This document shows, one piece after another, positions 17,160 through 63,276 of a DNA stretch of 64,000 nucleotides; positions within the stretch are counted from its first letter, which is position 1, and each line of letters starts with the position of its first letter. Both the position numbers and the translations under genes were made by a program. Under the pieces are notes generated by a model. It was given only the letters and a program-made list of their open reading frames with translations, did no database searches and was not told the DNA's origin. Source of the stretch: Deltaproteobacteria bacterium (GTDB lineage: Bacteria > Myxococcota_A > Polyangia > Fen-1088); the NCBI GenBank assembly GCA_033763315.1, contig JANRKS010000007.1, positions 122,073-186,072 of the forward strand. The letters are read 5' to 3'.

Positions 17160-17178
17160 TGGATTTTAAACCTCATGC

Positions 17179-21143: not shown

Positions 21144-21203
21144 GTTGTGGCGACGTTGGTAGCCTCGGCGCAGCTTGTTCGAATGTTTGCGAGGAAATTG
21201 AGA

Positions 21204-29729: not shown

Positions 29730-29752
29730 CGCTTGTGATAGCTTGCGGGCCC

Positions 29753-47214: not shown

Positions 47215-50200
47215 ATGAAAAGCCCTGTAGATCGCGCGATTTTGGTGCAAGGCGCCCGCCAGAACAACCTCAAGAACATTTCTGTTCGCATTCCGATCGG
47301 GGCCGTCACCGCCGTGACAGGCGTGGCCGGCGCCGGCAAATCGTCGCTCGCGTTCGACATTCTTTATGCCGAGGGCCACCGGCGCTATGTAGAAACGTTC
47401 AGCGCGTACGCACGGCAGTTCCTGGAGCGATTGGATCGCCCCAAAGCCGAACGCGTGGTGGGCGTATTGCCTGCTGTGGCGATTGACCGCACGGCGCCTG
47501 TGCGCACGTCACGCTCCACGGTGGGCACAATGACGTCGATCGCGGACTACCTGCGGGCGCTCTACGCGCGCGCCGCCGTTTTGCGCTGTGATGTATGTGG
47601 CAAGCCTGTGCAGCGGGCAAGTGCGGATGGCATTGCCACGCACTTGTTGTCGACCGCCGCCGGTCGCACGGCCTTGCTGACGTTCGTTGTCCCAAGTGGC
47701 AAGCTCAAGCCCAAGCTGATTCGTGAAGCGTTCGCGCGCAATGGCTTTTCCCGCGTGTGGGAAGACAACAACGTCGTCAAACTCGATGACGCCAAGCTCG
47801 CGCCTGCGGATGGGCAGCTTGTGGTGGTGCTTGATCGCGTGCGGCTGCCCTCCCCCGCCCAGCAAACGGATGACGATCGCAAGCGCTTGGGCGATTCCAT
47901 CGAAGCGTCTTTGCGCTGGGGCCGCGGCGACATGGCCGTGCGCTTTGAAGGCGACAACAACGTGCAATCGTTTAGCGAAAGCTTGCGTTGTTGCGGCGTC
48001 ACGTATGCCGATCCAACGCCCGCCACCTTCTCGTTCAACAACCCCGTGGGCGCTTGCATCACGTGCAAAGGCTTTGGGCGGACGATGGCAATCGATCCCA
48101 ACCTTGTGGTGCCCGATCCGCGCCTTTCGATCAAAGAGGGCTGCATCAAACCGATGCAGTCGCCTTCCTATAAGGAATGCCAAGACGATCTTGAACGCTT
48201 CTGCAAACGCGCCGGCATCGATATGACGGTGCCCTGGGCCAAGCTGCCGGCGGCCTCGCAGAAGCGCGTGTGGCAGGGCGAGCCAGGGGCGCTCACCAAT
48301 TGGAAGAAGCATTGGTATGGCGTCGATGGCTTCTTCGCGTGGCTTGAAGGGCGCAGCTACAAGATGCACGTGCGGGTGCTGCTCTCGCGCTACAGGCACT
48401 ATCTGCCGTGCACGGCCTGCGGCGGCGCACGCTTGCAGCCAGAGGCGTTGCGCTTTTCCATCGAAGGGCAAACGCTGCCGCAACTCGAGGCCGCCACAAT
48501 CGCGAATGTGGATGCGTTTTTTGCCAGCTGGAAGAATCGCCCGCAGGACGCCGCCACAGCCTTGGTGCTGCAAGAGCTGACCTGCCGCTTGCGCTTCCTT
48601 GTGGACGTGGGGTTGGGATACCTCACACTTGGCCGCCAATCGCGCACGCTCTCGGGCGGTGAAGCACAACGCGTGGGTTTGGCCACCGCGCTCGGCAGCG
48701 CTTTGACCAGCACACTTTATGTTTTGGACGAACCATCGGTGGGTTTGCACGCGCGCGATGCAGACCGCTTGGTTGGCGTACTTGCGCGGCTGGCGGAAAA
48801 AGACAACGCCGTGGTGGTGGTGGAACACGATCCGGTGCTGATTCGATCGGCCGACCACGTGATCGATTTGGGCCCCGGCCCTGGCCCCGAAGGCGGCGAA
48901 GTGATCTATGAAGGGCCCGTGCAAGGCTTGTTGGGCCACCCGCGCTCGCAAACAGCGCCCTACTTGCAGGGCCACGCGATGCGGCCGCAGCGTCAGCCGC
49001 GCACGCTCGACTTTAAACACGCCATCGCGATTGAGGGCGCCACCGAAAACAACTTGCAGAACGTGTCTGTGAAGGTGCCGCTTGGCGGCCTTGTGTGCGT
49101 CACGGGCGTCAGCGGCTCAGGCAAATCGACCTTGGTGGATCAAGTGCTTTACCGCAACTTGCGACGACATCTCGGGCAACCCGAATCGGAATTGGGCGCC
49201 TGTGCTGGGTTGCAAGTGTTCTTGCCGCCAGGCAAGGCATTGCAAGACGTAGTGTTCGTGGATCAAACGCCGCTTGGCAGCAGTGGGCGCGTCAACGCCG
49301 CAACATACCTGGGTGTGTTGGATCCAATCCGCAAGGTGTTCGCGAGTACCCAGGCGGCGAAGGACGCAGACGTAAGTGCGTCGGCCTTCTCGTTTAATTC
49401 GGCCGTGGGCGCGTGCCCTTTGTGTGGCGGCGCCGGCTTTGAAAAGATCGAATTGCAATTCCTGCCCGACGCGCACGTGCGCTGCCCTGCGTGTGATGGC
49501 AAACGGTTTCGTCCAGAAACGTTGGCGATTAAATACGAAGGTTACGACATTGCTGAAGTGTTAAACCTTTCGGCATTGGAAGTCAGCGCGCTGTTCAAAC
49601 ATAACAAGCCGCTGGTGCGTGGCTTGGCACCGCTCATCGATTTGGGCCTTGGCTACTTGCCGTTGTCGCAAGCGGCGCCGTCGCTTTCAGGCGGCGAATC
49701 GCAGCGGTTGAAGCTGGCCGCCTATCTGGCGGGTGCCACCACGGCCAAGCCGACGCTTTACATTCTTGATGAGCCGACCACAGGCCTTCACCCCGCCGAC
49801 GTGGCGAAGCTGCTGCAAACGTTGGACCGTTTGGTGGCGGCGGGGCACAGCGTGGTGGTGGTTGAACACAATCTTCAAGTGGCTTGGGCGGCGGATTGGT
49901 TGATCGATCTTGGCCCTGAAGGAGGGGATCAGGGTGGGCGCATCATTGCGCAAGGCACGCCGGAGGCTTTGAGCCAAACCAGCAGCGCCACAGGCGTGGC
50001 CCTGGCGCAGGCTGTACGCAAACAATCCAACACTGTGGCGCGCGCAAGCGAGGCGGCCGCAAAGTATGTGGTGTTCGAGCGGCCGATCGAAATCGAGGGC
50101 GCACGCGAGCACAATCTGAAGAACGTGGCGGCGACGTTTCCGCGCAACAGATTCATCGCCGTCACGGGCGCCTCCGGTTCGGGCAAATCCACGTTGGCGT

Positions 50201-52653
50201 TCGATGTACTTTACGCCGAGGGCCAACGGCGGTTCTTGGACTGTCTTTCCACATATGTGCGCCAGTTTGTGCGGCCTTTGGCACGGCCCGATGTGGATCG
50301 CGTCGAAGGTGTGCCACCCACCGTGGCGCTTGAACAAAAGCTGACACAAGGCTCGTCACTCTCCACCGTGGGCACAGCGTCCGAGGTATACCACTACCTG
50401 CGTTTGGTCTACGCGTGGTTGGGCACGCCCCATTGCCCCAAGTGTGGTCTGGCCGGCGAAGGCGTGGATGCCAAGGCCCTGGTGGGTCGCATCACGTCGC
50501 AGCACGAGGGCCGCGCCATCACGTTGCTGGCGCCGCTTATCCGCAAACGTAAAGGCGCGCACACCGAAGCGATGGCGGCCACCGTGAACCTGGGCGTCGC
50601 ACAACTGCGCGTGGACGGCACCGTCCATATGGCCAAAGCGTTGCCCAAGCTCGATCGCTACCAAGTGCATGATGTGGAGGCGGTGGCTGCATCCATGACA
50701 GCCAAAGACTGGAAAGGCGACGGCGAGGCCACGCTCAAAGCGGCCGTGACGCGCGCCCTCGAACTGGGCGGCGGCCACATCATCGTGGCCAGCGGCGGTC
50801 TGGATCACCACTATTCAACGTTGCGCTCATGCCCGAACTGCGGCTCGGGCCTGCCTGTTCCCGATCCGCGTTTGTTCACGTGGAGCCAGAAGTTCGGCGC
50901 GTGCCCCACGTGTGAAGGCAGGGGCACAACGGAGCCGCATGACGAAGACGTTGATGAAAACAGCGAAACCTTCGTCGGCCGCGCCGAAACAGAGCCGTGC
51001 GTCGCGTGTGACGGCAGCCGCTTGGGTCCGGCCGCGCGATCCGTGCGGATCGCCAACGAACATATTGGCCAGGTGGCGGCGCGTTCGGTGCGTGCGTTGC
51101 AAACGTGGGTGAAGGACACTTTACGCGCCAACCTGCGTATTCCCGTCGAATTGCAAGAGGCTGTGTTGCCCGAGATCGAACGCCGTCTGCAAGTGCTGGA
51201 TCAACTGGGCCTCGGGTACCTAACACTGTCGCGCGGGGCTCACACGCTTTCAACAGGCGAAGCGCAGCGCGTACGGATCGTGGCGCAACTGGCTTCGAAC
51301 CTGCGCGGCGTGTGTTACGTCTTAGATGAACCAACGGTGGGTTTGCACCCGCGCGACGCCGCAGCGCTAACTGACGCTCTTTTGGAGCTACGCGATCGGG
51401 GCAACACTGTTGTTGTGGTGGAACACGATGAAGCCGTGATTCGCCGTGCGGATCACATCATTGATTTAGGGCCGGGCGCTGGCCGGCATGGCGGGCACAT
51501 TGTTGTGGCGGGCAGCCCGGCCACCGTGGCGGCAAACACGCGGTCCATCACGGGCGCGTGGCTACGCGGCCATGGCAACGTGCCACCACCTCCGCGCCGG
51601 TCACTGACCGATGGGCCGCGCCTCGCCTTGCGCGGAGCGAACTTGCACAACCTTTCCAATGTGAACGTCGATGTGCCGGTGGGCCGTTTGGTGTGCGTCA
51701 CGGGCGTCAGCGGCTCGGGTAAATCAACGCTCGTGCGGCGGGTGTTGTTCTCGGCCGTCAAAGCCAAGCTGCAACGCAAGAAATTGCCTGCGTGCGCATC
51801 GGGCCTCACAGGCACAGAGCACGTGGATCGCGCACTTGTTGTGGATGAAGCGCCCATTGGCCGCACTCCACGGTCAGTGCCGGCCACCTACGTGGACATC
51901 CTGACACCGATTCGTTCGCTGTTTGCCGAAACACCCGACGCACGCGCCCGCGGTTTCAAAGCCAACCGCTTTTCGTTCAACGTCAAAGGCGGACGCTGCG
52001 AAAAGTGCGAAGGCCAAGGCCGTTTGAAAGTGAGCATGGCGCTGTTGCCCGACGTCTACATTCCGTGCGCCACGTGCAATGGCGCGCGTTTTAATCCCGA
52101 TACGTTAGCGGTGCGCTACAAAGGCAAAACGATCGCCGACGTGTTGGCGATGTCGGTGGAAGACGCGGTGGTGTTCTTCGAGAGCGCGCGTGCCATCGCG
52201 AATCCCTTGGCGTTCCTCAACGACATTGGCCTCGGCTACCTGCAGCTGGGTCAGCCCAGCCCCACGCTTTCGGGCGGAGAAGCGCAACGAATCAAGCTGG
52301 CGGCGGAACTTTCATTCTCCGGCCAAGGTCGGTCGTTGTTCGTGTTGGATGAACCCACCACAGGACTTCACATGGCCGATGTGGCAAAGCTCATCGCGGC
52401 TTTGCAAAAGCTTGTGGATCGCGGCGACACCGTGGTTGTGATTGAACACAACGTGGATGTGATCCGTGCCGCGGATTGCCTTATCGACATGGGCCCCGAA
52501 GGCGGCGTCGAGGGCGGCCAGGTTGTGGCGTGGGGAACCCCCGAAGAGGTGGCGGCGTGTCCGGCTTCACGAACCGCAGCTTTCCTTGGCCTTCACCCGC
52601 GGGTGGCACCAAAGAAGACAGCACGAACAATGAAGCCACGCACCCTGCAGTGA
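47215..52653 (+). CDS. tandem-duplicated UvrA-like ABC ATPase (two complete UvrA units in one 1812-aa polypeptide)
   Basis: four Walker A sites (GVAGAGKSSLAFD ~aa35, GVSGSGKSTLV ~640, GASGSGKSTLAFD ~970, GVSGSGKSTLV ~1500); four LSGGE signature motifs; CxxC zinc-finger pairs in each half; UvrA-typical ILYAEGQRRYVE..SAYARQF segment present twice. Confidence 0.85.
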   Translation: MKSPVDRAILVQGARQNNLKNISVRIPIGAVTAVTGVAGAGKSSLAFDILYAEGHRRYVETFSAYARQFLERLDRPKAERVVGVLPAVAIDRTAPVRTSRSTVGTMTSIADYLRALYARAAVLRCDVCGKPVQRASADGIATHLLSTAAGRTALLTFVVPSGKLKPKLIREAFARNGFSRVWEDNNVVKLDDAKLAPADGQLVVVLDRVRLPSPAQQTDDDRKRLGDSIEASLRWGRGDMAVRFEGDNNVQSFSESLRCCGVTYADPTPATFSFNNPVGACITCKGFGRTMAIDPNLVVPDPRLSIKEGCIKPMQSPSYKECQDDLERFCKRAGIDMTVPWAKLPAASQKRVWQGEPGALTNWKKHWYGVDGFFAWLEGRSYKMHVRVLLSRYRHYLPCTACGGARLQPEALRFSIEGQTLPQLEAATIANVDAFFASWKNRPQDAATALVLQELTCRLRFLVDVGLGYLTLGRQSRTLSGGEAQRVGLATALGSALTSTLYVLDEPSVGLHARDADRLVGVLARLAEKDNAVVVVEHDPVLIRSADHVIDLGPGPGPEGGEVIYEGPVQGLLGHPRSQTAPYLQGHAMRPQRQPRTLDFKHAIAIEGATENNLQNVSVKVPLGGLVCVTGVSGSGKSTLVDQVLYRNLRRHLGQPESELGACAGLQVFLPPGKALQDVVFVDQTPLGSSGRVNAATYLGVLDPIRKVFASTQAAKDADVSASAFSFNSAVGACPLCGGAGFEKIELQFLPDAHVRCPACDGKRFRPETLAIKYEGYDIAEVLNLSALEVSALFKHNKPLVRGLAPLIDLGLGYLPLSQAAPSLSGGESQRLKLAAYLAGATTAKPTLYILDEPTTGLHPADVAKLLQTLDRLVAAGHSVVVVEHNLQVAWAADWLIDLGPEGGDQGGRIIAQGTPEALSQTSSATGVALAQAVRKQSNTVARASEAAAKYVVFERPIEIEGAREHNLKNVAATFPRNRFIAVTGASGSGKSTLAFDVLYAEGQRRFLDCLSTYVRQFVRPLARPDVDRVEGVPPTVALEQKLTQGSSLSTVGTASEVYHYLRLVYAWLGTPHCPKCGLAGEGVDAKALVGRITSQHEGRAITLLAPLIRKRKGAHTEAMAATVNLGVAQLRVDGTVHMAKALPKLDRYQVHDVEAVAASMTAKDWKGDGEATLKAAVTRALELGGGHIIVASGGLDHHYSTLRSCPNCGSGLPVPDPRLFTWSQKFGACPTCEGRGTTEPHDEDVDENSETFVGRAETEPCVACDGSRLGPAARSVRIANEHIGQVAARSVRALQTWVKDTLRANLRIPVELQEAVLPEIERRLQVLDQLGLGYLTLSRGAHTLSTGEAQRVRIVAQLASNLRGVCYVLDEPTVGLHPRDAAALTDALLELRDRGNTVVVVEHDEAVIRRADHIIDLGPGAGRHGGHIVVAGSPATVAANTRSITGAWLRGHGNVPPPPRRSLTDGPRLALRGANLHNLSNVNVDVPVGRLVCVTGVSGSGKSTLVRRVLFSAVKAKLQRKKLPACASGLTGTEHVDRALVVDEAPIGRTPRSVPATYVDILTPIRSLFAETPDARARGFKANRFSFNVKGGRCEKCEGQGRLKVSMALLPDVYIPCATCNGARFNPDTLAVRYKGKTIADVLAMSVEDAVVFFESARAIANPLAFLNDIGLGYLQLGQPSPTLSGGEAQRIKLAAELSFSGQGRSLFVLDEPTTGLHMADVAKLIAALQKLVDRGDTVVVIEHNVDVIRAADCLIDMGPEGGVEGGQVVAWGTPEEVAACPASRTAAFLGLHPRVAPKKTARTMKPRTLQ

Positions 52654-52691: not shown

Positions 52692-52800
52692 TCGGCAGGG
52701 TGAAATGAAATTCCCCCCCAAGACCGACGGCACCAACTAAAAACGTGTGCATCGCGCGCCCAGATCGCTGAGGTTCAAAACCTGCGCCGTTCACTCGTTC
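52692..52800. repeat. copy 1 of a ~105-bp repeated element (CGGCAGGGTGAAATGAAAT...GTGCATCGCGCGCCCAG...GCGCCGTTC)
   Basis: aligns with 60873-60976 at roughly 80% identity in the same orientation; similarity ends abruptly at both borders. Confidence 0.6.
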
Positions 52801-53303
52801 CGATTTACGAGCGACGCGCGCCAGAATCAACGCTGCTGGAAGGGGATACTGGAGCTCCTTGGAGAAAACGTCTTCGCGCCTACATTGGCGACAGCGCGGG
52901 CGCCGCCAAGCGACGAAGCCGACTGGTAGCAGGGTGTGTTGGCGGAGAGTCAATGGTGGCGAAGCAGGGCCGGCGATGGCCAAGGGATACGTCTGTCCCG
53001 TGGACTAAAATAGGCGCAGAATCCTTGTTTTCTCTGGGTGGAACGAAGTTTACGGAAGGGACGTTATCGGTCCCTTGAAGCGCTTTGCCTCAATGGTTGC
53101 CCTCATGACGCAGGCGCAAATGCAGCTTTGAAACGCCTATGCTCTTCATCGTCCTTTTCGCGTGGGTCAGATGCAGCTTGAGTCCCCGAGCTCTCATCTT
53201 CGTTCTTTTTCTTTCGCGACACATGCCAGGTTCGCGCGTCAAGTTGGCAACGGTTCAGGAATGAAAGGGCAAGGGAGCCCTCCGTAGACACAAGGAAAAG
53301 AAC

Positions 53304-54428
53304 ATGCACAGTAGATCAATTGCCAGATTCTTATGCGGAGCGGCTTCGATTTCGATGCTCGGAAGTTTCTCCTTTCAAGCACAAGCTCGAACAGTGCAAG
53401 GCGTTGATCGCGACGGTGATGGACGAGCAGACGTGGCCGTTTACCGTCCATTAAACGCTCGATGGTTTGTCACGATATCAAACGGCGGTGAGAGCAACGA
53501 AGTATTTGGAAACAAAGGAGATATCGCTGTGCCAGGTGACTATGACGGTGACGGCAGAACAGACCTCGCGGTCTTCCATCCTTCGAATGGCTTCTGGTTC
53601 ATCAATCACTCGTCGGGCATTGCACCGAAAGCCAAACAATGGGGGCTATCCGGGGATGTGCCAGTGCCAGCGGACTACGACGGCGATGGCAAGACGGATC
53701 TTGCGGTCTATCGTCCGTCTTCCGGCTACTGGTACCTGATCAATTCAAGGAGTGGTCTAAGCGAATCACGTGGTTGGGGGCTTTCAGACGACGTACCACT
53801 TCCTGGCGACTACAATGGAGACGGACGTTTTGACTTTGCTGTGTACAGACCATCACTGGCTCAATGGCACATCCTGCTCAATGGAAGCGCACAGACGATC
53901 TTTTCAATATGGGGAGATGCTGGCGATGTTCCGGTGGTCGCAGATTTCGACGGCGATTGGGTAACTGATACGGCCATCTATCGCCCAAGGGATGGGTACT
54001 TCCATATCAAGCTTGCAAGCGGACTGCGCCAATACCGATTCGTTGGAGCAAACCAAATACCCATCGTCGGCGACTATGATGGCGACGGCAAGGCTGACCC
54101 CGCTGTTTGGAACACGCAAACCAGCCTCTTCACGATCAGCCTGATGGCAACGAACGTGATGAAGACGGAAGTCCTAGGGTTTAATGACTTCACGGAGTAC
54201 GGCCGAGATGTCCCGCTTGTTTCCACTCTCTATGCTCAGCAAAGCGTTCCGAGGATCGCTTTAGCGCAAGGGACTTGGTGTTGTGCGTCCTGTAGCCCGG
54301 ATGGCAAGACTTGCGGACTATGCCAGGTAAAGCCTGGTACAGGATTGTGTCCAACTGGGACCAAAACAAAAACCGGAGACTGCGAGTCGACGGATGATGG
54401 AGACTTTTTAGACCTGACTTGTAGATGA
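53304..54428 (+). CDS. secreted FG-GAP/VCBS-repeat propeller protein with Cys-rich C-terminal tail
   Basis: signal peptide; six to seven D(Y/F)DGDG(K/R)(T/A)D.AV(Y/F)RP...W repeats; low GC (~52%). Confidence 0.65.
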   Translation: MHSRSIARFLCGAASISMLGSFSFQAQARTVQGVDRDGDGRADVAVYRPLNARWFVTISNGGESNEVFGNKGDIAVPGDYDGDGRTDLAVFHPSNGFWFINHSSGIAPKAKQWGLSGDVPVPADYDGDGKTDLAVYRPSSGYWYLINSRSGLSESRGWGLSDDVPLPGDYNGDGRFDFAVYRPSLAQWHILLNGSAQTIFSIWGDAGDVPVVADFDGDWVTDTAIYRPRDGYFHIKLASGLRQYRFVGANQIPIVGDYDGDGKADPAVWNTQTSLFTISLMATNVMKTEVLGFNDFTEYGRDVPLVSTLYAQQSVPRIALAQGTWCCASCSPDGKTCGLCQVKPGTGLCPTGTKTKTGDCESTDDGDFLDLTCR

Positions 54429-54643
54429 TCAACAATTCTCATCTGCCACAGAAATGTGGCTCAAGGTCGCTGCGACGATCTCTGCATGGGTCGCGCATCC
54501 CCCCTCAGAAACTGCAGTCGAGGTGTGGCCATTGACGGCCTGTCTCTCCTGACAAAAACAAGTGCGGCGGCAGTTTGTGCTGCGCATGGTTCTTAGCTCG
54601 TTTCTCACCACATTCAGAAGTTCTCAGATCAAAGGTATCTCAT

Positions 54644-56611
54644 ATGAAGAAGACTCAATGGATTTTCACTATCCTTCTGATGGGGATTCCCTTCACTTTT
54701 ACCTCGCTGGGAATCGACAAACCTACGGTAGCAGCAGAGCCGGCTGCTGCAGAACCTGCAGGTCCCTTTGAAAAAGCCTGGGCTGTCCTCACGAAACTCA
54801 AATCAGACCTCGATCCATGGATCGATGCGGCCAGCTATGCCAAAAAGTTGATTGAAAAGTTTTACGGGGTACCAACAGAAATCGAGCTAGCTCGAGATGA
54901 AATCATTGCCGAGATAAAGAACACCCAGATTACACGGCTGGAAGGAACGATAATCGGAATGCTCAATAACTTCGCCGATGTTGTCCGTGATCCCAATAAC
55001 ATGCACAACAGCTTTCAGCTTAATCTCATCAAATCTCAAGCAGATCTGGTGCTCGGCGAAATGCAATCGTTGATAGAAAGACGTGATTCGGTTTCTGTGA
55101 AAGAGCTTGCCGTCGCGAGCAATCTCGCCACAGCCGTTGGCGCTGCGGCCCGAAAGCTTCTTGGTATGGAGTCCGCGATTTCTCCCCTTCTCCAGCGACA
55201 GATGGATATGAACTATTCGGTTGTAGGTGTTGATTCTTACTATGTGAATAGGTCCGCAGTGCGAGACTCTGCGGGCTCCAGCTTGCTGTGGTCCGTGATC
55301 GATACGCCAGCGTTTTACTGTGATAGCACGGAGGCACGGGCTGAACTTGCTAACAAGCGCATTATAACCCTACACTCCCCGCCAGGCGGAACGATCGCGA
55401 ATGCCGTTTATTGCAAGCACAAGGATGGAAAGTGCTTCGCGTATTACAAGGACCCAAGTCCGATCGCAAATGGCCTTGCGGAGGGAGTGGGAAGTCCCAA
55501 AACAACATTTCCAATATGCTGGAAAGAAACGCACTCGCGAGCATTGAGAGCCTTCGATGATAATCCGACGGTCAAGGCCATCAAAAAGGCGATGCAGCAA
55601 TCATATTTTTCAGGATACAGGCCATCGGCGATATCAGGACCCTTCATCATTAGCGGATGTCTGTCAAAGGCGGCAAATTCAATTCTGGACTTCGACGGTG
55701 ATTGCACGAGCGATCTCGCTGTTTACCGCCCAGGGTACACTAGTTCCTTCGAAGTTCTTCTGAGTCGGACAGCGAGCTTCAATTCCACCTCAATGCCTCT
55801 CGGTGGCTACAACGACCTTCCTGTCCCAGGGGACTACGATGGTGATGGAAAATCAGACGCCGCCGCTTATAGGATCGCAGACGGTCTGTGGTCGATAGCC
55901 CCTAGCTCCGGCGCTGCGCCGTACTCGCGGGCATGGGGGCTAGAAGGAGACACACCCGTTCCTGCTGACTACGATGGTGACGGAATGACCGACATCGCGG
56001 TCTACCGGCCTAGCAATGGCCATTGGTATGTTTGGCCGAGTGGTGGTGGCGATAGATATGCGGTGCCATGGGGGCTGAGCACGGACATTCCAGTCCCCGG
56101 CGACTACGATGGCGACGCGAAAGCAGATTTCACGATTTGGCGCCCAGGGGATGGCAATTGGCACGTGCGTCCTACATCAGGAGCGGCGCCATACGCAGTT
56201 CAGTGGGGGCTCCAAGGTGATCATCCAATCCCACGAGATTTTGATGGCGACGGACGACTTGACTTTGCTGTTCGCAGGGACGGTCAATATGGCGTTTACG
56301 TAATGCCAAGTAACGGAGGAAGCAGATACTTCGTGGCGTTTGGGAACCCAGACGACATTGCCGTTCCGGCTGACTTTGATGGCGATGGGAAGGCGGACCA
56401 GGCCGTTTGGCAAAGAGCCAAAGCATTTTGGTGGTACAAAAGGAGCACGGGAGGGGATCGAGTCCCCTACGACTCTAATTGGGGGCGCTCACCGCCTCCA
56501 AATTGGGAGCCCGTGAATCCGACTATCGGTCGACAATGGGGAACGAACCGAGATTTCCCCCTTGGTTCGCAGCTTCACGGAAACTTCTCCTGGGCCGGCG
56601 TATTTAGGTAG
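54644..56611 (+). CDS. secreted protein: unknown ~350-aa N-terminal domain + FG-GAP/VCBS-repeat propeller
   Basis: ATG 54644 (MKKTQWIFTILLMGIPFTFTSLG); six DYDGDG.TD.AVYRP...W repeats paralogous to upstream gene; low GC. Confidence 0.65.
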   Translation: MKKTQWIFTILLMGIPFTFTSLGIDKPTVAAEPAAAEPAGPFEKAWAVLTKLKSDLDPWIDAASYAKKLIEKFYGVPTEIELARDEIIAEIKNTQITRLEGTIIGMLNNFADVVRDPNNMHNSFQLNLIKSQADLVLGEMQSLIERRDSVSVKELAVASNLATAVGAAARKLLGMESAISPLLQRQMDMNYSVVGVDSYYVNRSAVRDSAGSSLLWSVIDTPAFYCDSTEARAELANKRIITLHSPPGGTIANAVYCKHKDGKCFAYYKDPSPIANGLAEGVGSPKTTFPICWKETHSRALRAFDDNPTVKAIKKAMQQSYFSGYRPSAISGPFIISGCLSKAANSILDFDGDCTSDLAVYRPGYTSSFEVLLSRTASFNSTSMPLGGYNDLPVPGDYDGDGKSDAAAYRIADGLWSIAPSSGAAPYSRAWGLEGDTPVPADYDGDGMTDIAVYRPSNGHWYVWPSGGGDRYAVPWGLSTDIPVPGDYDGDAKADFTIWRPGDGNWHVRPTSGAAPYAVQWGLQGDHPIPRDFDGDGRLDFAVRRDGQYGVYVMPSNGGSRYFVAFGNPDDIAVPADFDGDGKADQAVWQRAKAFWWYKRSTGGDRVPYDSNWGRSPPPNWEPVNPTIGRQWGTNRDFPLGSQLHGNFSWAGVFR

Positions 56612-56692
56612 AACGTCGCCGACACCGTTGTGATTTGCTGTTGGTCGCCATTTGAAACCTACTCGGGGCCTCCATGTCAGGGGCCGATCTTT

Positions 56693-57480
56693 CGTAAGCG
56701 TTCAGGCCCCCGAAAAAGTTGTCAAAATCGAATGCCTGACGATTTGCTAAGAAAGGGGATCGACAGCAGATCGCAAACGTGATCTACCTTGGTCGTTGGA
56801 CGACAAGGCAAAGATCGCAGAGCTCACGGCGCAGCTGCTGGCCAAAGACGTAGTGATCGAGGAGCTGCGGCAGGAGATCGTTGAGCTCAAGGGTGTGGTG
56901 GCTGAGTTGAGGGCGCTGGTGGCCGATTTGACCGAGAGGCTTGGCCAGAACTCTCGCAATTCACACAAGCCGTCGTCAAGCGATGGCCCCGGCGCCACCA
57001 GGAATTCGGGCAAGCCTAAACACGGCTCCGATCGGAAGCGCGGTGGCCAAAAGGGCCACCGCGGCCGCCATCGTGAGCTGCTGCCCGCAGATCAGGTCGA
57101 CGCTGTAGTGGATGTGTTCCCATCGCATTGCGAGGGGTGCGCGGTGCGCGGAGCCGCTGCCACCGATTCCTGACATGCAAGCCGCACGCAGGTGACCGAG
57201 GTGCCACCAATAAAGCCTCACACGACTGAATATCGCCAGCATGCGGTGACATGCCCATGTTGCGCGCACTCCACGCGCGCCACGGGCGCCGGCATCATTC
57301 CAAGATCCCCGTTTGGCCCGCGTTTAATGGCCCTGGTGGCCTTGCTTAGCGGCGTGTACCATCTGAGCCGCCGTCGCACAGTGCAGGCGCTGCACGACAT
57401 CCTAGGCGTGCGCATTTCGTTGGGCGCCGTCAGCGCTGTTGAAGCACGTGTTAGTGATGCGGTTAAGCATAGAGCGTGTC
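56693..57480 (+). mobile_element. truncated IS66-family insertion sequence remnant (left end only)
   Basis: IS66-type terminal repeat start GTAAGCG at 56693; TnpC-like leucine-zipper and zf-IS66 regions; no DDE domain and no right-end CGCTTAC found. Confidence 0.7.
56796..57480 (+). pseudogene. IS66 transposase (TnpC) fragment, frameshifted and 3'-truncated
   Basis: 56796..57173 encodes the leucine-zipper N-terminus (RKRGGQKGHRGRHRELLP); 57192.. continues in another frame with zf-IS66 (TEYRQHAVTCPCCAH) and the start of the DDE region (GPRLMALVALLSGVYHLSRRRTVQALHDILGV), then similarity is lost near 57480. Confidence 0.65.
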
Positions 57481-57614
57481 CCAATGCGACGTTAGGAACG
57501 CATCGACAGCAACGGCATCCTGCGCTTCGACATGATCAACGGCTTGGGCGAAACCGTGTACAGCTTGCAACTGGCTCCGCCATAATTTCGGTGGGTAGAG
57601 CTGCGGACAGGGGT

Positions 57615-57956
57615 TCATGCCGTGACGAACTCCCACGCGTGGAACAGCTTGGCTTCCTCCTTCGGCGAGAACGCCAAGAGCGGCGAGGCTTCGTGGTACG
57701 CGCTAAATCGAGCCGCGGCGCTGTTCGGATCGAGCTGCCAATCCGCGCGATACTCTTTGCTGCCGCGGAGTAAACGCTCGAAGCGCAGTCGCGCCACAAG
57801 TAGTGCACTCATGCGCAACCCATCTGTGTTTATGGCGGCCAAAGCCGCGCGTAGCGGATGCTGGTCGTCCAACGCCTTGATCGCCGATGCAAGCGCGCCC
57901 TGCGGATCGCGCGCTCTCAGCACATGTACAAGGATGTTTTCGTAGTCATCCATCAT
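57615..57956 (-). CDS. small hypothetical protein (113 aa) directly downstream of the DUF692 gene; candidate partner subunit
   Basis: 12-nt gap to DUF692 stop; does not show the DUF2063 LAVYRNNV motif; lies ~135 bp from the IS66 truncation point. Confidence 0.4.
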   Translation of the reverse strand: MMDDYENILVHVLRARDPQGALASAIKALDDQHPLRAALAAINTDGLRMSALLVARLRFERLLRGSKEYRADWQLDPNSAAARFSAYHEASPLLAFSPKEEAKLFHAWEFVTA

Positions 57957-57968
57957 AGATGGCTTCCT

Positions 57969-58856
57969 TCATGCCGCTTGCTTCACCACACACGATCGCA
58001 GGCGCCGCATTTCTTCTCGAAGCAGGCCCACGTCAGAGTCCGCGATGGTGCCCTCCATGCGTTCCAAAACGATCGCGCGCAAATGCGAGCATCGAGGCAA
58101 TGCGACGTCGAGCAAACGCCACACCTCAGGCGGAATAGGGCCATCGTGGCCATCCAAACGCAGGCTGCGGCCGCCAGGCAGCCAACGTGGATCAGAATCA
58201 GTGCCGCCGGCCATATGGATTTCGATCACTTGGTCAAGCGGCAGTGCTGCAAGGTACTCCTCTGCATCAAACCCAAGATTGCTGGCCATCGCGAACACAT
58301 TCGCCAAATCCAACAACAGCCGCCGACTTGGGTTCTGCAGAACGCTGCGAATGAATGCCGGCTCATCCAACGGGTTGCCGCACACAAAATGCGATGCTGG
58401 GTTTTCGATGCCCACCACGGGCACAACTGTACTCATCTCATCAAGGCGCAAGCGAACGCATTCCGCTGCTTCCGCCGTCATAGGCAACGGCAACGGAAGC
58501 GCCGTATTCTGGCCTGCAGGCGCCGTAATGCCCAGATGATCTGTGTACCAAAGAAACTGGAACAGGGCCTGATCACGGGCCATTGCAGCTCTCCACTGTG
58601 CGCGGCGATACACCTCCGCAGCGCTGCCACCTCCGCCAACCGAATAGCCAACACCGTGGGCAAGAAACCTCTGCCCACTGCGCCTTCCCATGCTTAAGAA
58701 CAAGGCATGATAGTCGTTCGTATGCAGTCGCCCTTCTACTTGCTGCCACAACGTTTCGGGTGCCACTTCAAAGATATCGGGCTCTTCTTCGAGGAAGGCC
58801 CCCAAGATGTCTAGCGTCGCTTCATCGGGTGGCAACACGAAGCCTACCGGGATCAT
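57969..58856 (-). CDS. DUF692-family protein (MbnB/TglH-like multinuclear non-heme iron oxidative enzyme, MNIO)
   Basis: 295 aa; N-terminal VGFVL...DIFEVAPETLW; C-terminal LLLDLANVFAMASNLGFDAEEYLAALPLDQVIEIHMAGG matches the DUF692 core (LLLDvNNvyV...NhgfDp..yl..lp...V.eiHLAGg). Confidence 0.75.
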   Translation of the reverse strand: MIPVGFVLPPDEATLDILGAFLEEEPDIFEVAPETLWQQVEGRLHTNDYHALFLSMGRRSGQRFLAHGVGYSVGGGGSAAEVYRRAQWRAAMARDQALFQFLWYTDHLGITAPAGQNTALPLPLPMTAEAAECVRLRLDEMSTVVPVVGIENPASHFVCGNPLDEPAFIRSVLQNPSRRLLLDLANVFAMASNLGFDAEEYLAALPLDQVIEIHMAGGTDSDPRWLPGGRSLRLDGHDGPIPPEVWRLLDVALPRCSHLRAIVLERMEGTIADSDVGLLREEMRRLRSCVVKQAA

Positions 58857-59692
58857 TGGTGTCCCTCCGGCTCGAGTCTTACGTTGAACGGAGCCAGCGG
58901 CCGGCCTGCGAAGAGCACGTTGTTATCTGCTGTGAAAACCAAACTTTCGGCTGAGCCCGTTTGCACAACACAACCGGCTTGATCAATAACCTCCACATTT
59001 CCGCTGGCATCAAGGCGGACGATGTTATTGCCTTGCATGTGCAGGCCTACCCAAGCCGTAAGCTGTCGCGCCCGCTCGGAGGATGGTTCCTGCACCGGCT
59101 GAACCTCGCTGCTCACCGGCAAAGCAGGTTCTGCTTTCGAAAGCTCGACGAGAGCGAACGCAACATCCGCATTCTCAGGCAGCGCTGCCCATGCGCTCCG
59201 CATTAGCATCTGGGGCCCCTCAAGCTGAACCGCATTGCCGAACCCCAGCGGCATCACGTGGCTGGCTGATAGTGCTTTCGCGAGTTCGGTCAACACCGCC
59301 GGCTGCGCGTCAACGAGGATGGCGTCGCTGCGAACGTCTTGGTCAATGACGAACCGCTGCAATGACAAAGCGGCCTCCTCTGCAGACGACGACGGTGCGT
59401 GCCAGGATGCTTTCCACACAACGCCACCTTGACCCCACAGGCGCTCGCGTTTTCCGTTAATCCTTGTTTCCACGGTGTCTTCGATCGGATCAAATTCCAC
59501 CAGTAACCCCGACGTCACGGGCATCTGGTTTACCCATAAGGCTTCAGCTTTCCGCGTGGCCTCGTCCACGAGCACGTAGCTCGAGCCATGCATGGCAGCG
59601 TCGCCGCACCCAACGTGCAAAAGCAGCGCTGCGATCACCGGCAGGCAAACAATGTTCCTATTCATTCGTTCCCCTTTCGTCCTGGGAGTCAA
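58853..59692 (-). CDS. hypothetical lipoprotein (279 aa) translationally coupled to the DUF692 gene
   Basis: lipobox LLLHVGC; 4-nt overlap with DUF692 start; few Cys; no recognised domain. Confidence 0.5.
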   Translation of the reverse strand: MTPRTKGERMNRNIVCLPVIAALLLHVGCGDAAMHGSSYVLVDEATRKAEALWVNQMPVTSGLLVEFDPIEDTVETRINGKRERLWGQGGVVWKASWHAPSSSAEEAALSLQRFVIDQDVRSDAILVDAQPAVLTELAKALSASHVMPLGFGNAVQLEGPQMLMRSAWAALPENADVAFALVELSKAEPALPVSSEVQPVQEPSSERARQLTAWVGLHMQGNNIVRLDASGNVEVIDQAGCVVQTGSAESLVFTADNNVLFAGRPLAPFNVRLEPEGHQ

Positions 59693-60695
59693 ATGTTAAG
59701 AAATCGAGGATGCGCCGGCTGCGGGCTGGCACGTGGCCCATGCCGCAGGCGAACCCAAACATCGAATCATCCTTTTCACCAGGCAGCCATTCGATGTCCA
59801 AGCCACACCCGTTTGCTTGAGCCCAACGGCTTCCCGCAATACGGCGGTGGCAGAGCGCCATGCGCGAGGCCTCCGCCACGAGATGCGTCAGCCTGCCGCG
59901 TTCACTGCCCTGCGCGGCATAACTTTGTGCAAGCAGCGACGCGGCTGCCGCTAGAACCACATCGGCAAGCTGTGGGTTGGTTGCAACTTCGTTGGCTGTG
60001 ATCGCCTGCGCCTTGAGAAACGTGTTCGCTCCGTTGTGGGTGCCCAGCTTGTTTCTTGCCTGATCCGCGCGCACCAGAAGCGCATCTTTGGATGGAGTCA
60101 AGCCTTTGTTCAGCAACTCTGTCAGTAAGCGAATTCGCAAAGAGATGAGCTCATCTTGTTTACGCTCCCGACGTGCGAATGCCGGGGCCCAGTCCTTCTC
60201 TGAACTATCACCTTCCAGCTCCACATCGTATGGGTCTGGTAAGGTGACATCAAGGTTTGTGGTGCGGGCAGGCAAGGCTTCAGTTTCGATGAGCACCATC
60301 AACGGATCGTTCGACGATGGCGGTGTTTGTGGTGCCAATCTGTTGATCGCGAACATCGGAGCACAAACAACCTCGCACAAACCGAGCAAGGCCAACGCTT
60401 CATCCCCGCCGTGGTTCAGCAACTCGCCGAACGCGTGAGCGCGCCCCCAATCGTGTTCTTTCGCAACGAAAACCAGCAGCGGCTTTCCCACTGCGGCTGC
60501 GCGTGCAAAGGCGGCTGAAAGAAGCTGGTCCCAACGCAGTGCTTGCATAAATGCCCGCGCTGGCTTTGCCTTGCCGCCAGGGCAGGCCTCATCAGCAAAC
60601 GCTGCTCGAATCCAAATCGGAATCGCCAGCGCCGCCGCCGACTTAACAAACGCGCGGCGTGCAGCATGCCTTCCAAGTCGCTCCCTAGCCTTCAT
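59658..60695 (-). CDS. hypothetical exported protein with twin-arginine (Tat) signal
   Basis: N-terminal AARRAFVKSAAALAIPIW fits S/T-RRxFLK plus hydrophobic core; 35-nt overlap with downstream lipoprotein ORF. Confidence 0.5.
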   Translation of the reverse strand: MKARERLGRHAARRAFVKSAAALAIPIWIRAAFADEACPGGKAKPARAFMQALRWDQLLSAAFARAAAVGKPLLVFVAKEHDWGRAHAFGELLNHGGDEALALLGLCEVVCAPMFAINRLAPQTPPSSNDPLMVLIETEALPARTTNLDVTLPDPYDVELEGDSSEKDWAPAFARRERKQDELISLRIRLLTELLNKGLTPSKDALLVRADQARNKLGTHNGANTFLKAQAITANEVATNPQLADVVLAAAASLLAQSYAAQGSERGRLTHLVAEASRMALCHRRIAGSRWAQANGCGLDIEWLPGEKDDSMFGFACGMGHVPARSRRILDFLTFDSQDERGTNE

Positions 60696-60872
60696 AGTGA
60701 CCTCCGGTGAACGGGCCTACAATAGTGAAGAGACAACCGTTCGACCCTTCGGTTTCACTAGAAGGTCAAAATATGAGGAGCTACGATGGGCCTTTAATCG
60801 CTGGTGGCGGCCTCGTCAGTGGCAGTGCTGTTCGCACGCGATGGATATGGAGGGGTGCTGGAGGCACGGCGC

Positions 60873-60976
60873 CGGCAGGGTGAAATGAAATCCGTCCCAA
60901 GACCGACGGTATCAATTGAAACGAGTGCATCGCGCGCCCAGGTCGGCGACGTTCAGAACCCGCGCCGTTCGATCGG
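60873..60976. repeat. copy 2 of the ~105-bp repeated element
   Basis: aligns with 52692-52800 in the same orientation. Confidence 0.6.
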
Positions 60977-61282: not shown

Positions 61283-61957
61283 ATGAAAAGCAGCATGAAA
61301 CGCATCGAAGCTCTTTTAATCGCCCTGTTATCATTCCCCTTGGTGGCTGCGGACGGCGGAGGCGGTTGCGGCGAGCATCAACCTGGAAATGGCGACTCAA
61401 GGACGTGGACCACCGGTGTGCTTCCGCAGGCGGAAGGCACGCCGCAACCAATGTCAGCACCGTGGCTCAGTGGACCCAATTGCTGGAAGGATTTAGTGGC
61501 TGCGGCTCAAGCTTGTCTGCGCACCCCGCAGGCCTTCGGCGCTTTTGATGAGCGTCGCCAAACATGCAGTCTTTCTGGCGGTGGTCGACTGGAATTGGCA
61601 GGGCCGATCTCGACGCCCGCCGAGGATTCTAGAATCTATGTCGCGACCGATTGGCGCCTGTGGGGACCGCACGGGCGTGTATGTGTCACGGGAAAGCTAT
61701 TGGCGGCCAATCGTTCGGTGGTAGACGTCGAGGGAAAGTCCGCGTTGTTTGAAAGTTCCACACTGACGGCGTACGGTGTGACGTGCCCGGACGGACGTAC
61801 GTTCCGAAATGACATCGACGGAGTGGATCCCACTTTCGGCGCGTTGTGGCTTGCTGGAAGGGCACCAGGGGTGGTGTTCGAGTGCAAAGGCAAGACCTGT
61901 ACGATGAGTCTAAAGGGCGGCGCGGCAGGGGATACGCCCATCGCCTCGTGCCAATGA
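61283..61957 (+). CDS. secreted hypothetical protein with several Cys
   Basis: signal peptide MKSSMKRIEALLIALLSFPLVAADG; no recognised domain. Confidence 0.45.
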   Translation: MKSSMKRIEALLIALLSFPLVAADGGGGCGEHQPGNGDSRTWTTGVLPQAEGTPQPMSAPWLSGPNCWKDLVAAAQACLRTPQAFGAFDERRQTCSLSGGGRLELAGPISTPAEDSRIYVATDWRLWGPHGRVCVTGKLLAANRSVVDVEGKSALFESSTLTAYGVTCPDGRTFRNDIDGVDPTFGALWLAGRAPGVVFECKGKTCTMSLKGGAAGDTPIASCQ

Positions 61958-62208: not shown

Positions 62209-63276
62209 GTGCCACACGCAGTTCCCCGCGCACTTGTTCACTTCCACATATACCTTGCGTTCTTGGTTGCTTGCTCGTCAGGACCCAACGAACAAAGCGA
62301 GGATCATCCAATAGACGACGCGTCCGACGACAACGGCGGGTCGATGGCTTCAGCCGGGGGCGCGGCCGGCCCACGGAACAGCGCTGGGGTTTCGGGGCAA
62401 GAGGGTGGAGACGGTGGGCACGCTGCAAGTGGTGGCGCTGCTGGTGCCAGTGGGATCATCGGAACGGGCGGCAACCCAGGCTCAGGGGGAGCAACCGCCA
62501 ACACGGGCGGCCTGGCCGGGGGCTCAACACAAGCCCCCTGGCTAACGTTGCCGGCGCGAAGCGTGGGTTGTGGAAAGGCTGCCAAGGGCACCGGATCCTA
62601 TGTGCGCCAAGATATGCAAGTCGCGGCTAAGGCCCGGGCAAACTTTCTTTGGCTTCCCTTAAATTACGACCCCACCAAAGCGCATGAGCTTCTAATTTCA
62701 CTACATGGGACGGGCGGCGTGGCGCCGGGCGATGGCAAAGGGATCGAAACTGCGGCGGGCAACGAAGCCATCATCATGACACCGCAAGGTATTGATGGGA
62801 TGTGGCAGCTGGGCGCTGACGGAGAAGACGTTGCGTTCTTTGATGCAATGTATGCTTTTGCAACCGAGAACTTCTGCGTGAATCAGCAGCGTGTGTTTGT
62901 TACAGGCTTTAGCCTGGGTGCAGCGATGTCGAATTTGTTGGGCTGTGTTCGCGGCGACAAAATTCGCGGCATTGGTCCCCTTGCGGGATGGCAACCTGCA
63001 CGACAAACGGATTGCCGTGGGCGGCCCGCCGCATGGTTTGCGCATGGAACGTCGGATGGCGCCGTTCCCATCGTTCAAGGAACGCGTTCCCTCGGTTTGC
63101 AGATGGTCCGCAACGGATGTGAAGCGGCCACCGCGCCAACGCCGCCGTCGCCTTGTGTTGCTCAACAGGGCTGCGATACGGGATCACCTGTTGTGTGGTG
63201 TGAAATTCCCGGAGATCACGGCACCCCTATTGAATGGTCGGTGCCCGCGCTGTGGAAATTTTTCGCCGCCCTATAG
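62209..63276 (+). CDS. lipoprotein with Gly-rich linker and PHB-depolymerase/esterase-family alpha/beta hydrolase domain
   Basis: GTG 62209; lipobox LVACSSG; Gly/Ala/Ser-rich linker; ISLHGTGG and TGFSLGAAMS nucleophile elbow. Confidence 0.65.
   Translation: MPHAVPRALVHFHIYLAFLVACSSGPNEQSEDHPIDDASDDNGGSMASAGGAAGPRNSAGVSGQEGGDGGHAASGGAAGASGIIGTGGNPGSGGATANTGGLAGGSTQAPWLTLPARSVGCGKAAKGTGSYVRQDMQVAAKARANFLWLPLNYDPTKAHELLISLHGTGGVAPGDGKGIETAAGNEAIIMTPQGIDGMWQLGADGEDVAFFDAMYAFATENFCVNQQRVFVTGFSLGAAMSNLLGCVRGDKIRGIGPLAGWQPARQTDCRGRPAAWFAHGTSDGAVPIVQGTRSLGLQMVRNGCEAATAPTPPSPCVAQQGCDTGSPVVWCEIPGDHGTPIEWSVPALWKFFAAL

What the first reader, a model, noticed from the sequence alone, without database searches (positions are those of the whole stretch)
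52692..60976. Two ~105-bp direct repeats bracket an ~8-kb segment carrying low-GC FG-GAP genes, an IS66 remnant and the MNIO cluster
52692-52800 and 60873-60976 share roughly 80% identity in the same orientation, beginning CGGCAGGGTGAAATGAAAT and ending GCGCCGTTC, with a GTGCATCGCGCGCCCAG core. Similarity stops sharply at both borders. Nothing else in the window resembles them. They could be attL/attR-like remnants of an integrated element. They could also be members of a dispersed repeat or MITE family. A third possibility is a structured RNA or leader element present upstream of two different secreted-protein genes; both copies are on the plus strand, about 300-500 bp upstream of plus-strand genes.
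Basis: seen in the sequence. Interest (0 to 1): 0.6.

Follow-up and report, generated by a model that had tools for sequence, protein, structure and literature searches.

The report
Decayed direct repeats flanking inserted genes
Two roughly 105-base copies of one non-coding sequence flank an 8-kb block of accessory genes just after the uvrA repair gene; they are most likely leftover scars of an old DNA insertion, which is an ordinary feature of bacterial genomes.

Summary
Window 52693-52797 and 60873-60975 are one collinear direct repeat: 88 of 105 aligned positions identical, three single-base indels, sharp borders, and no third copy in the 64-kb window.

No evidence supports a structured RNA. 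There is no Rfam match. Single and consensus folds are no better than shuffles (z about 0). The differences are spread at random. No conserved ORF is present.

The unit was absent from every searchable collection: GTDB species representatives, JGI metagenomes, IMG/VR, plasmids, phages, the three nearest relatives and homologous MNIO cassettes.

Synteny shows a break directly after uvrA. The upstream gene order is conserved in relatives. One relative has the orthologous esterase 2.3 kb after uvrA, against 9.5 kb here. The interior is a mosaic: two low-GC3 FG-GAP genes, a truncated IS66-type element, and an MNIO cassette that sits in unrelated contexts elsewhere.

The best reading (about 0.45) is a decayed insertion or duplication scar, either att-like or a long target duplication, now too diverged to recombine.

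Evidence against this reading:
- No integrase was found among the window's larger ORFs.
- No empty site is available for comparison.
- Composition does not return to core values after copy B.

Genome-wide copy number could not be tested. Interest is low.

The parts
52693..52797 (+). Repeat copy A (105 nt, 57.5% GC over 52692-52797), starting 39 bp after the uvrA stop codon
   Evidence: alignment with copy B, 88/105 identical; nhmmer
60873..60975 (+). Repeat copy B (103 nt, 60% GC), in the divergent intergenic region between the MNIO cassette (minus strand) and the 224-aa gene (plus strand). It lies 178 bp from the start of the 345-aa gene and 265-307 bp from the 224-aa gene.
   Evidence: identical in Logan contig L023 7775-7877
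47215..52653 (+). Double-length UvrA (1812 aa), the last gene of the block that is syntenic with relatives
   Evidence: synteny
52798..53303 (.). Unique 506-bp spacer between copy A and the first FG-GAP gene (56% GC). No convincing ORF, promoter or terminator.
53304..54428 (+). FG-GAP repeat secreted protein 1 (374 aa, Cys-rich C-terminus), GC3 0.52
54575..56611 (+). FG-GAP repeat protein 2 (678 aa by longest ORF; 655 aa in the Logan gene call), GC3 0.53
   Evidence: (135-bp periodic repeats)
56696..57773 (+). IS66-family remnant. It has a left end starting GTAAGCG and the N-terminal part of the transposase split into two ORFs (56796-57173 and 57192-57773). The catalytic half and the right end are missing.
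57615..60695 (-). Four-gene MNIO cassette: 345 aa (59658-60695), 279 aa by longest ORF or 270 aa in the Logan call (58853-59692), MNIO/DUF692-type enzyme of 295 aa (57969-58856), and 113 aa (57615-57956)
   Evidence: homologous cassettes in unrelated contexts
61283..61957 (+). Near-orphan 224-aa secreted protein (NCBI SF187_07385), the first gene after copy B
62209..63276 (+). Esterase / PHB-depolymerase-like protein, 55% identical to the gene that lies 2.3 kb after uvrA in relative L027. It marks the likely resumption of ancestral gene order.

Best explanation
The two units are the decayed flanking direct repeats of an old insertion into the variable region directly downstream of uvrA.

Inferred history:
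- The ancestor had uvrA, a single copy of the ~105-bp unit, then the 224-aa gene and the esterase.
- A foreign segment entered. Its mode of entry duplicated or matched about 105 bp. The candidates are site-specific recombination whose recombinase has since been lost, single-crossover integration of a circle, or 'insertion with long target duplication'.
- The interior was later remodelled. An IS66-type element inserted and was truncated where the FG-GAP block now meets the MNIO cassette.
- The two copies then drifted to 84% identity.

Their longest identical run is now 18 nt. By general knowledge of RecA, that is too short for efficient homologous recombination, so the block is effectively fixed and the repeats have no present function.

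Shown: the repeat itself, its position at the synteny break, the mosaic and partly foreign content, and the absence of RNA-like or coding signals.
Inferred: the ancestral single copy and the mechanism of duplication.
For: - Real two-copy repeat with sharp borders and no similarity in the flanks.
- Copy A begins 39 bp after the uvrA stop.
- The upstream order GlgB-GH57-Ank-MFS-Metallophos-NUDIX-uvrA is shared with relatives whose UvrA is 76-79% identical; the 73% relative (L027) shares only NUDIX and uvrA of these. Everything after the uvrA stop differs.
- In L027 the esterase orthologue (55% identity, E 3e-102) starts 2.3 kb after uvrA, against 9.5 kb here.
- The interior holds FG-GAP genes with GC3 0.52-0.53 against 0.70-0.75 in core genes.
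- The interior holds a truncated IS66-type element with its GTAAGCG end.
- The MNIO cassette sits in four unrelated genomic contexts elsewhere.
- The differences between copies are distributed as expected by chance (P = 0.56 for the longest identical run), as for neutral decay.
- Direct repeats at island borders, and mobility-gene-free inserts flanked by direct repeats longer than 30 bp, are documented classes (PMC2704930; PMC2853133).
Against: - No integrase or recombinase was found in the Pfam/NCBIfam scans of the window's larger ORFs or in the gene table of the 2.8 kb beyond it. No tRNA or tmRNA target is present.
- No genome with an empty site was found. The nearest relatives are distant (UvrA identity at most 79%) and lack the unit altogether, so a pre-existing single copy is not demonstrated.
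- The change relative to relatives is a replacement, not a clean insertion. Their RR-GGDEF gene is missing here.
- GC3 does not return to core values after copy B: 224-aa gene 0.61, esterase 0.58. The repeats therefore do not delimit the compositional anomaly.
- The interior is at least two blocks joined at a truncated IS, so it is not one element.
- 84% identity is low for att or target-duplication repeats unless the event is old.
Confidence: 0.45

Rival explanations
1. Duplicated cis-regulatory segment. The unit would be a stretch of promoter or operator DNA copied upstream of two transcription units so that one regulator controls both. The units would be the FG-GAP genes, and the 224-aa gene and/or the divergent MNIO cassette.
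For: - Both copies are intergenic and in the same orientation, 506 and 265-307 bp upstream of plus-strand secreted-protein genes.
- Copy B is also 178 bp upstream of the MNIO cassette.
- One homologous MNIO cassette elsewhere has an FG-GAP gene next to it, which hints at a functional link between the two flanked units.
Against: - No sigma-70-like promoter was found in or near either copy.
- The distances to the genes differ.
- Only 1 of 4 homologous cassettes has an FG-GAP neighbour, and none has similar DNA upstream.
- The differences are spread at random with no protected core.
- No sub-block recurs upstream of any other gene in the window.
- The unit was not found in any other organism searched.
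Confidence: 0.2
2. Member of a genome-specific dispersed repeat family (MITE-, REP- or solo-end-like) that happens to have two copies in this window.
For: - The unit is short, non-coding and intergenic, with sharp borders.
- The rest of the 455-kb contig and the rest of the MAG could not be searched, so copy number is unknown.
- The region contains an IS remnant, so mobile DNA has been active here.
Against: - There are only two copies and no partial copies in 64 kb.
- It has no terminal inverted repeats, no flanking target-site duplication and no hairpin potential above shuffles.
- The Logan short-read contig runs through copy B unbroken, which argues against many near-identical copies.
- Pattern scans of 185,579 species representatives, JGI metagenomes and IMG/VR gave only chance hits.
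- There is no match in plasmids or phages.
Confidence: 0.15
3. Structured non-coding RNA or leader (riboswitch-like, sRNA or attenuator) present in two copies.
For: - It has a plus-strand orientation upstream of plus-strand genes.
- RNAalifold can draw a long-range consensus fold with one compensatory pair.
Against: - There is no Rfam hit at gathering threshold in the window and none at E up to 10 on either copy.
- Single-sequence fold z-scores are 0.17 and -1.48 on the plus strand, and -0.02 and 0.23 on the minus strand.
- The consensus fold energy equals that of column-shuffled alignments, z = 0.01 and -0.20.
- No terminator is shared by both copies.
- There is no conservation in any relative or collection.
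Confidence: 0.05

Closest known systems
Direct repeats (attL/attR) flanking genomic islands or islets formed by site-specific integration (Juhas et al. 2009, PMC2704930)
   Same: - Same-orientation repeats bracket a block of under 10 kb made of accessory genes.
- Part of the block is compositionally atypical and it carries an IS remnant.
- It lies at a synteny break next to a conserved gene.
   Different: - Typical repeats are 16-20 bp and perfect or nearly perfect. These are about 105 bp at 84% identity.
- No integrase and no tRNA target are present.
- The interior is a mosaic, and composition stays atypical beyond the right repeat.
Insertion with long target duplication, i.e. mobility-gene-free inserts flanked by direct repeats longer than 30 bp (Furuta et al. 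2010, PMC2853133)
   Same: - The insert is under 20 kb, the flanking direct repeat is much longer than a transposon target duplication, and no recombinase is needed.
- The left repeat sits in ordinary intergenic DNA of the host.
   Different: - The documented cases carry restriction-modification genes and have nearly identical repeats that align to a single copy in an empty-site strain.
- Here the cargo is FG-GAP genes plus an MNIO cassette, the repeats are 16% diverged, and no empty-site genome is available.
MITEs and REP/ERIC-type intergenic repeats
   Same: Short, non-coding and intergenic, with sharp borders.
   Different: No terminal inverted repeats, no target-site duplication and no palindromic fold. 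Only two copies were seen, and no family members were found in any collection.

Membership tests
attL/attR of an integrase-mediated genomic island or islet | Same-orientation repeats at both ends of the inserted block | tested here: met
   52693-52797 and 60873-60975, direct orientation, 88/105 identical
attL/attR of an integrase-mediated genomic island or islet | Integrase or recombinase gene (functional or cryptic) inside or next to the block | tested here: not met
   Pfam and NCBIfam scans of the larger ORFs of the window, plus the gene table of L023 to about 66.7 kb, show no recombinase. Only an IS66-type DDE transposase remnant is present.
attL/attR of an integrase-mediated genomic island or islet | Integration target is a tRNA/tmRNA gene or the end of a conserved gene, with part of it duplicated | tested here: not met
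   ARAGORN finds no tRNA or tmRNA in the window. Copy A starts 39 bp after the uvrA stop and contains no uvrA coding sequence.
attL/attR of an integrase-mediated genomic island or islet | A related genome shows the empty site with a single repeat copy | tested here: inconclusive
   The three nearest relatives (UvrA 73-79% identical) lack both the block and any copy of the unit. They are too distant to count as empty sites.
attL/attR of an integrase-mediated genomic island or islet | Composition of the block differs from the chromosome and returns to normal outside the repeats | tested here: inconclusive
   FG-GAP genes have GC3 0.52-0.53 against a core of 0.70-0.75. The MNIO cassette is 0.61-0.71, and the genes after copy B are also low at 0.58-0.61.
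Insertion with long target duplication (PMC2853133) | Insert under 20 kb flanked by direct repeats longer than 30 bp | tested here: met
   8,075-bp interior (52798-60872) flanked by units of 103-105 bp. The criteria are quoted from PMC2853133.
Insertion with long target duplication (PMC2853133) | Both repeats align to one copy of the target in a genome without the insert | not testable with these tools
   No close relative is in any searchable collection. The source MAG itself was not found in the genome-contig scan.
MITE / REP-like dispersed repeat | Many copies dispersed in the genome | not testable with these tools
   Only 64 kb plus 2.8 kb of the genome is readable, and it holds 2 copies and no partial copies.
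MITE / REP-like dispersed repeat | Terminal inverted repeats with a target-site duplication, or a palindromic fold | tested here: not met
   The ends (CGGCAGGGTG... and ...GCGCCGTTCRMTCG) are not inverted copies of each other, and the flanks share no duplication. Folds are no better than shuffles.
Structured cis-regulatory RNA (any Rfam family) | Match to a curated covariance model | tested here: not met
   0 gathering-threshold hits in the window. No hit overlaps either copy at E up to 10.
Structured cis-regulatory RNA (any Rfam family) | Fold stability or covariation above background | tested here: not met
   Single folds have z from 0.23 to -1.48. The alifold energy has z 0.01 and -0.20 against column shuffles. 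One compensatory pair out of 25 with only two sequences carries no statistical weight.

The most novel reading that the evidence does not exclude
The unit is a lineage-private cis-regulatory module that was duplicated so that one regulator co-controls two units. One unit is the FG-GAP proteins, whose Cys-rich C-terminal tails would be substrates. The other is the MNIO maturation cassette. On this reading the 8-kb bracket is a single functional unit for oxidative modification of large secreted proteins.
Probability: 0.07. Interest if true: 0.45.

Novelty: new member of a known kind. Interest (0 to 1): 0.15.

Why it matters
It matters little on its own. The repeat marks the spot downstream of uvrA as a hotspot for gene gain and replacement in a poorly sampled Myxococcota-like lineage. 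It also gives a rough relative age for the arrival of the FG-GAP and MNIO block: old enough for 16% drift in non-coding DNA.

For annotation, the useful point is negative. The unit should not be taken for an RNA gene or riboswitch candidate. If the insertion-scar reading is right, the repeats are now too diverged to mediate excision, so the MNIO/FG-GAP block is a fixed part of this genome.

Tried and rejected
- **Rfam.** I scanned the whole window at gathering threshold and both copies at E up to 10. Nothing fell on the unit.
- **Folding.** I ran single-sequence folds on both strands and consensus folds with a column-shuffle control. None was better than chance.
- **Coding.**
  - The single-base indels between the copies break every frame.
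  - The GTG-started frame shows mostly non-synonymous changes.
  - The ATG inside block 1 gives an 11-codon ORF in copy A and a different, out-of-frame 49-codon ORF in copy B.
  - Coding was rejected by reading the sequence.
- **Third copy at 44739-44755 (minus strand).** It shares about 15 nt only, so I treated it as chance.
- **Pattern scans.**
  - The two-block pattern GGTGAAATGAA-N28-52-CATCGCGCGC gave 21 hits in genome contigs and 28 in metagenome contigs. All were chance matches of the two blocks only.
  - Three IMG/VR scans gave chance hits or none.
A looser or different pattern could not be tried.
- **Plasmid and phage blastn.** There was no real match.
- **Remnants of relatives' genes.** I looked for pseudogene remnants of the FAD-binding, LysR, RR-GGDEF and 292-aa genes in the intergenic regions. 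None was found.
- **Known element types.**
  - Integron attC: rejected. There is no GTTRRRY core, no hairpin and no IntI.
  - Tn7-like ends: rejected. They would be inverted, not direct.
  - IS66 end: rejected. The IS66-type IRL is at 56696, more than 3 kb from either copy.
  - Sigma-54 promoter motifs: rejected by reading the sequence.
  - ECF promoter motifs: an ECF-like GAAC-N15-CGTC exists on the minus strand of copy B only. It reads CCTC in copy A.
- **Logan contig start.** The contig begins at window 53099. This is not interpretable, because that assembly is fragmented; UvrA is not on record as a complete gene there.
- **Source genome look-up.** Looking up UvrA by exact sequence failed, so I could not walk along the 455-kb NCBI contig.
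Full report
**1. The observation**

MAFFT aligns them with clear borders, and the repeat finder reports them as families D6 and D9. I compared 51.5-54.0 kb with 59.7-62.3 kb by sensitive blastn. It returned a single collinear segment, 52693-52797 against 60873-60975, with E = 1.7e-23 and nothing else above noise.

A global alignment of the two units has 88 identical of 105 two-sided columns, about 84%, with three single-base indels.

A profile of the two copies finds only those two in the window. Sub-blocks searched with 2-3 mismatches give no further copies. The one extra hit of the first block, at 44739-44755 on the minus strand, shares about 15 nt and then diverges completely.

**2. Gene context**

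| Coordinates | Strand | Feature |
|---|---|---|
| 47215-52653 | + | Double-length UvrA, 1812 aa |
| 52693-52797 | + | Copy A, starting 39 bp after the uvrA stop |
| 52798-53303 | . | 506-bp unique spacer |
| 53304-54428, 54575-56611 | + | Two FG-GAP repeat proteins |
| 56696-57773 | + | IS66-type remnant |
| 57615-60695 | - | Four-gene MNIO cassette |
| 60873-60975 | + | Copy B |
| 61283-61957 | + | 224-aa gene |
| 62209-63276 | + | Esterase-like gene |

- The IS66-type remnant has a canonical GTAAGCG left end at 56696. The N-terminal part of its transposase is split into two ORFs. It has no catalytic half and no right end.
- The MNIO cassette reads 345 aa, 279 aa, MNIO enzyme of 295 aa, 113 aa. 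The MNIO call rests on NCBIfam hits of E 1e-28, which are below the curated cut-offs, and on precomputed PF05114.
- Copy B lies 178 bp upstream of the cassette's first gene and 265-307 bp upstream of the 224-aa gene.
- The 224-aa gene is a near-orphan, with one homologue among 5.8 billion proteins.
- Pfam and NCBIfam scans of the window's larger ORFs found no integrase or recombinase, and the gene table of the 2.8 kb beyond it in the Logan contig lists none.
- There is no tRNA or tmRNA in the window.

**3. Is it an RNA or a coding element?**

- Rfam gives nothing at gathering threshold for the whole window. Nothing overlaps either copy at E up to 10.
- Single-strand folds of both copies on both strands are indistinguishable from dinucleotide shuffles, with z from 0.23 to -1.48.
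- RNAalifold draws a loose long-range fold with one compensatory pair. Its energy equals that of column-shuffled alignments, z = 0.01 on plus and -0.20 on minus.
- The 15 differing positions in a 100-column core alignment are spread as chance predicts. P = 0.56 for the longest identical run and 0.12 for the second. The 'cores' are therefore not evidence of constraint.
- The indels break every reading frame, and no short ORF is shared.
- No sigma-70-like promoter or shared terminator was predicted.

**4. Is it found anywhere else?**

- A two-block pattern taken from the unit was scanned against one genome per GTDB species and against JGI metagenomes. The 21 and 28 hits matched only the two blocks and nothing between or around them.
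- IMG/VR scans gave only chance hits or none. Plasmid and phage blastn gave no real match.
- The window's own copies were not recovered from genome contigs, so the source genome is not in that collection.
- The source is an NCBI MAG labelled Deltaproteobacteria bacterium, with locus tags SF187_07380 and SF187_07385 on a 455-kb contig. The same DNA occurs in a 13.7-kb Logan contig from SRR33270649.
- The genome-wide copy number of the unit therefore could not be measured. This is the main gap in the analysis.

**5. Comparative context**

The nearest relatives by UvrA are 79%, 76% and 73% identical. I fetched their contigs.

- The upstream order GlgB, GH57, Ank, MFS, Metallophos, NUDIX, uvrA is conserved with the 76% and 79% relatives, as far as their contigs reach. 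L027 shares only NUDIX and uvrA of these.
- Immediately after the uvrA stop, everything differs.
- Two relatives have FAD-binding (minus strand), LysR and RR-GGDEF.
- The third (L027) has RR-GGDEF, a 292-aa gene, and then an esterase 55% identical to the window's 62209-63276 (E 3e-102).
- The distance from uvrA to that esterase is 2.3 kb in L027 and 9.5 kb here.
- The RR-GGDEF gene common to all three relatives is absent from the window. No pseudogene remnants of the relatives' genes remain.
- None of the relatives contains anything like the unit.

Homologues of the MNIO cassette (at most 43% identity) occur as the same kind of four-gene cassette in four unrelated contexts. One of them has an FG-GAP neighbour. 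None has similar DNA upstream.

**6. Composition**

| Genes | GC3 |
|---|---|
| Core genes | 0.70-0.75 |
| FG-GAP genes | 0.52-0.53 |
| MNIO cassette | 0.61-0.71 |
| 224-aa gene | 0.61 |
| Esterase | 0.58 |

The FG-GAP block is clearly foreign. However, the anomaly neither starts nor ends at the repeats.

**7. Interpretation**

The most economical reading is that the site just after uvrA is a hotspot of gene replacement in this lineage. On that reading, the two units are what remains of the direct repeats made when DNA was inserted there.

Two known classes fit in outline:
- att-type repeats of islands and islets (PMC2704930);
- 'insertion with long target duplication', which needs no mobility gene and gives repeats longer than 30 bp (PMC2853133).

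I could not discriminate between them. For the first class, the integrase and tRNA features were tested and not met. For both classes, the decisive empty-site comparison is impossible with the relatives available.

The interior was later reshaped. The IS66-type element is truncated exactly where the FG-GAP block meets the 3' end of the MNIO cassette.

At 84% identity and a longest identical run of 18 nt, the copies are unlikely to support RecA-dependent deletion. This is an inference from general knowledge of minimal homology lengths. It implies that they are now inert.

I put this reading at about 0.45. The alternatives are:
- a duplicated regulatory segment, 0.2;
- a genome-specific dispersed repeat, 0.15;
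- a structured RNA, 0.05;
- something else, the remainder.

**8. Verdict**

The insertion-boundary option remains the best, the RNA option is not supported, and the dispersed-repeat option is untested. This is an ordinary kind of feature in a poorly sampled lineage. Interest is low.

Noticed in passing
window 57615-60695 (minus strand); L058 5300-8247; L059 5630-8580; L061 6171-9173: The MNIO (DUF692/MbnB-type) gene is part of a recurrent four-gene cassette: [223-301 aa][302-331 aa][MNIO ~292-302 aa][~120-140 aa]. It occurs in unrelated metagenomic contexts, including Minicystis-like Myxococcota. Three of the four proteins have no Pfam family. In the window the homologue of the 'second' gene (345 aa) comes first. 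No obvious short precursor peptide gene was seen.
   Followed up: partly
window 53304-56611; JGI 3300047160 contig: Two FG-GAP proteins with 135-bp periodic repeats and Cys-rich C-terminal tails lie convergent to the MNIO cassette. One unrelated contig has an 824-aa FG-GAP gene directly upstream of a homologous cassette. This is a possible functional link (a large-protein MNIO substrate?), but it was seen in only 1 of 4 contexts. A full-text search for MNIO together with FG-GAP found no paper.
   Followed up: partly
window 56696-57773: IS66-family remnant of the single-ORF type. The IRL starts GTAAGCGTTCAGG at 56696. The transposase N-terminus (DUF6444, weak zf-IS66) is frameshifted at about 57173 and truncated before the DDE domain. 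It abuts the 3' end of the MNIO cassette, which marks a rearrangement junction.
   Followed up: partly
window 47215-52653: UvrA is a tandem double (1812 aa, four ABC ATPase modules; internal DNA repeats D2-D4). At least the 120 best database matches have the same 1760-1890-aa architecture; those that carry a source name are from Myxococcota and Vicinamibacteria/Acidobacteria MAGs.
   Followed up: no
window 29678-31102 vs L025 18534-19889: The MFS transporter that lies about 3 kb downstream of uvrA in relative L025 is 83% identical to a gene 17 kb upstream of uvrA in the window. The uvrA neighbourhood has therefore been rearranged as well as added to.
   Followed up: no
window 15237-23276: A second group of genes has lowered GC3 (0.59-0.65): an RCC1-repeat protein and two large proteins without Pfam hits (848 aa and 709 aa). 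This is possibly another accessory block.
   Followed up: no
window 53099 (start of Logan contig SRR33270649_71005): The independent short-read contig of the same organism starts about 300 bp after copy A, near where GC content drops. It runs unbroken through copy B to about 66.7 kb. The break is probably due to coverage, because UvrA is not on record as a complete gene in that assembly. It could also mark population heterogeneity at the left junction.
   Followed up: no
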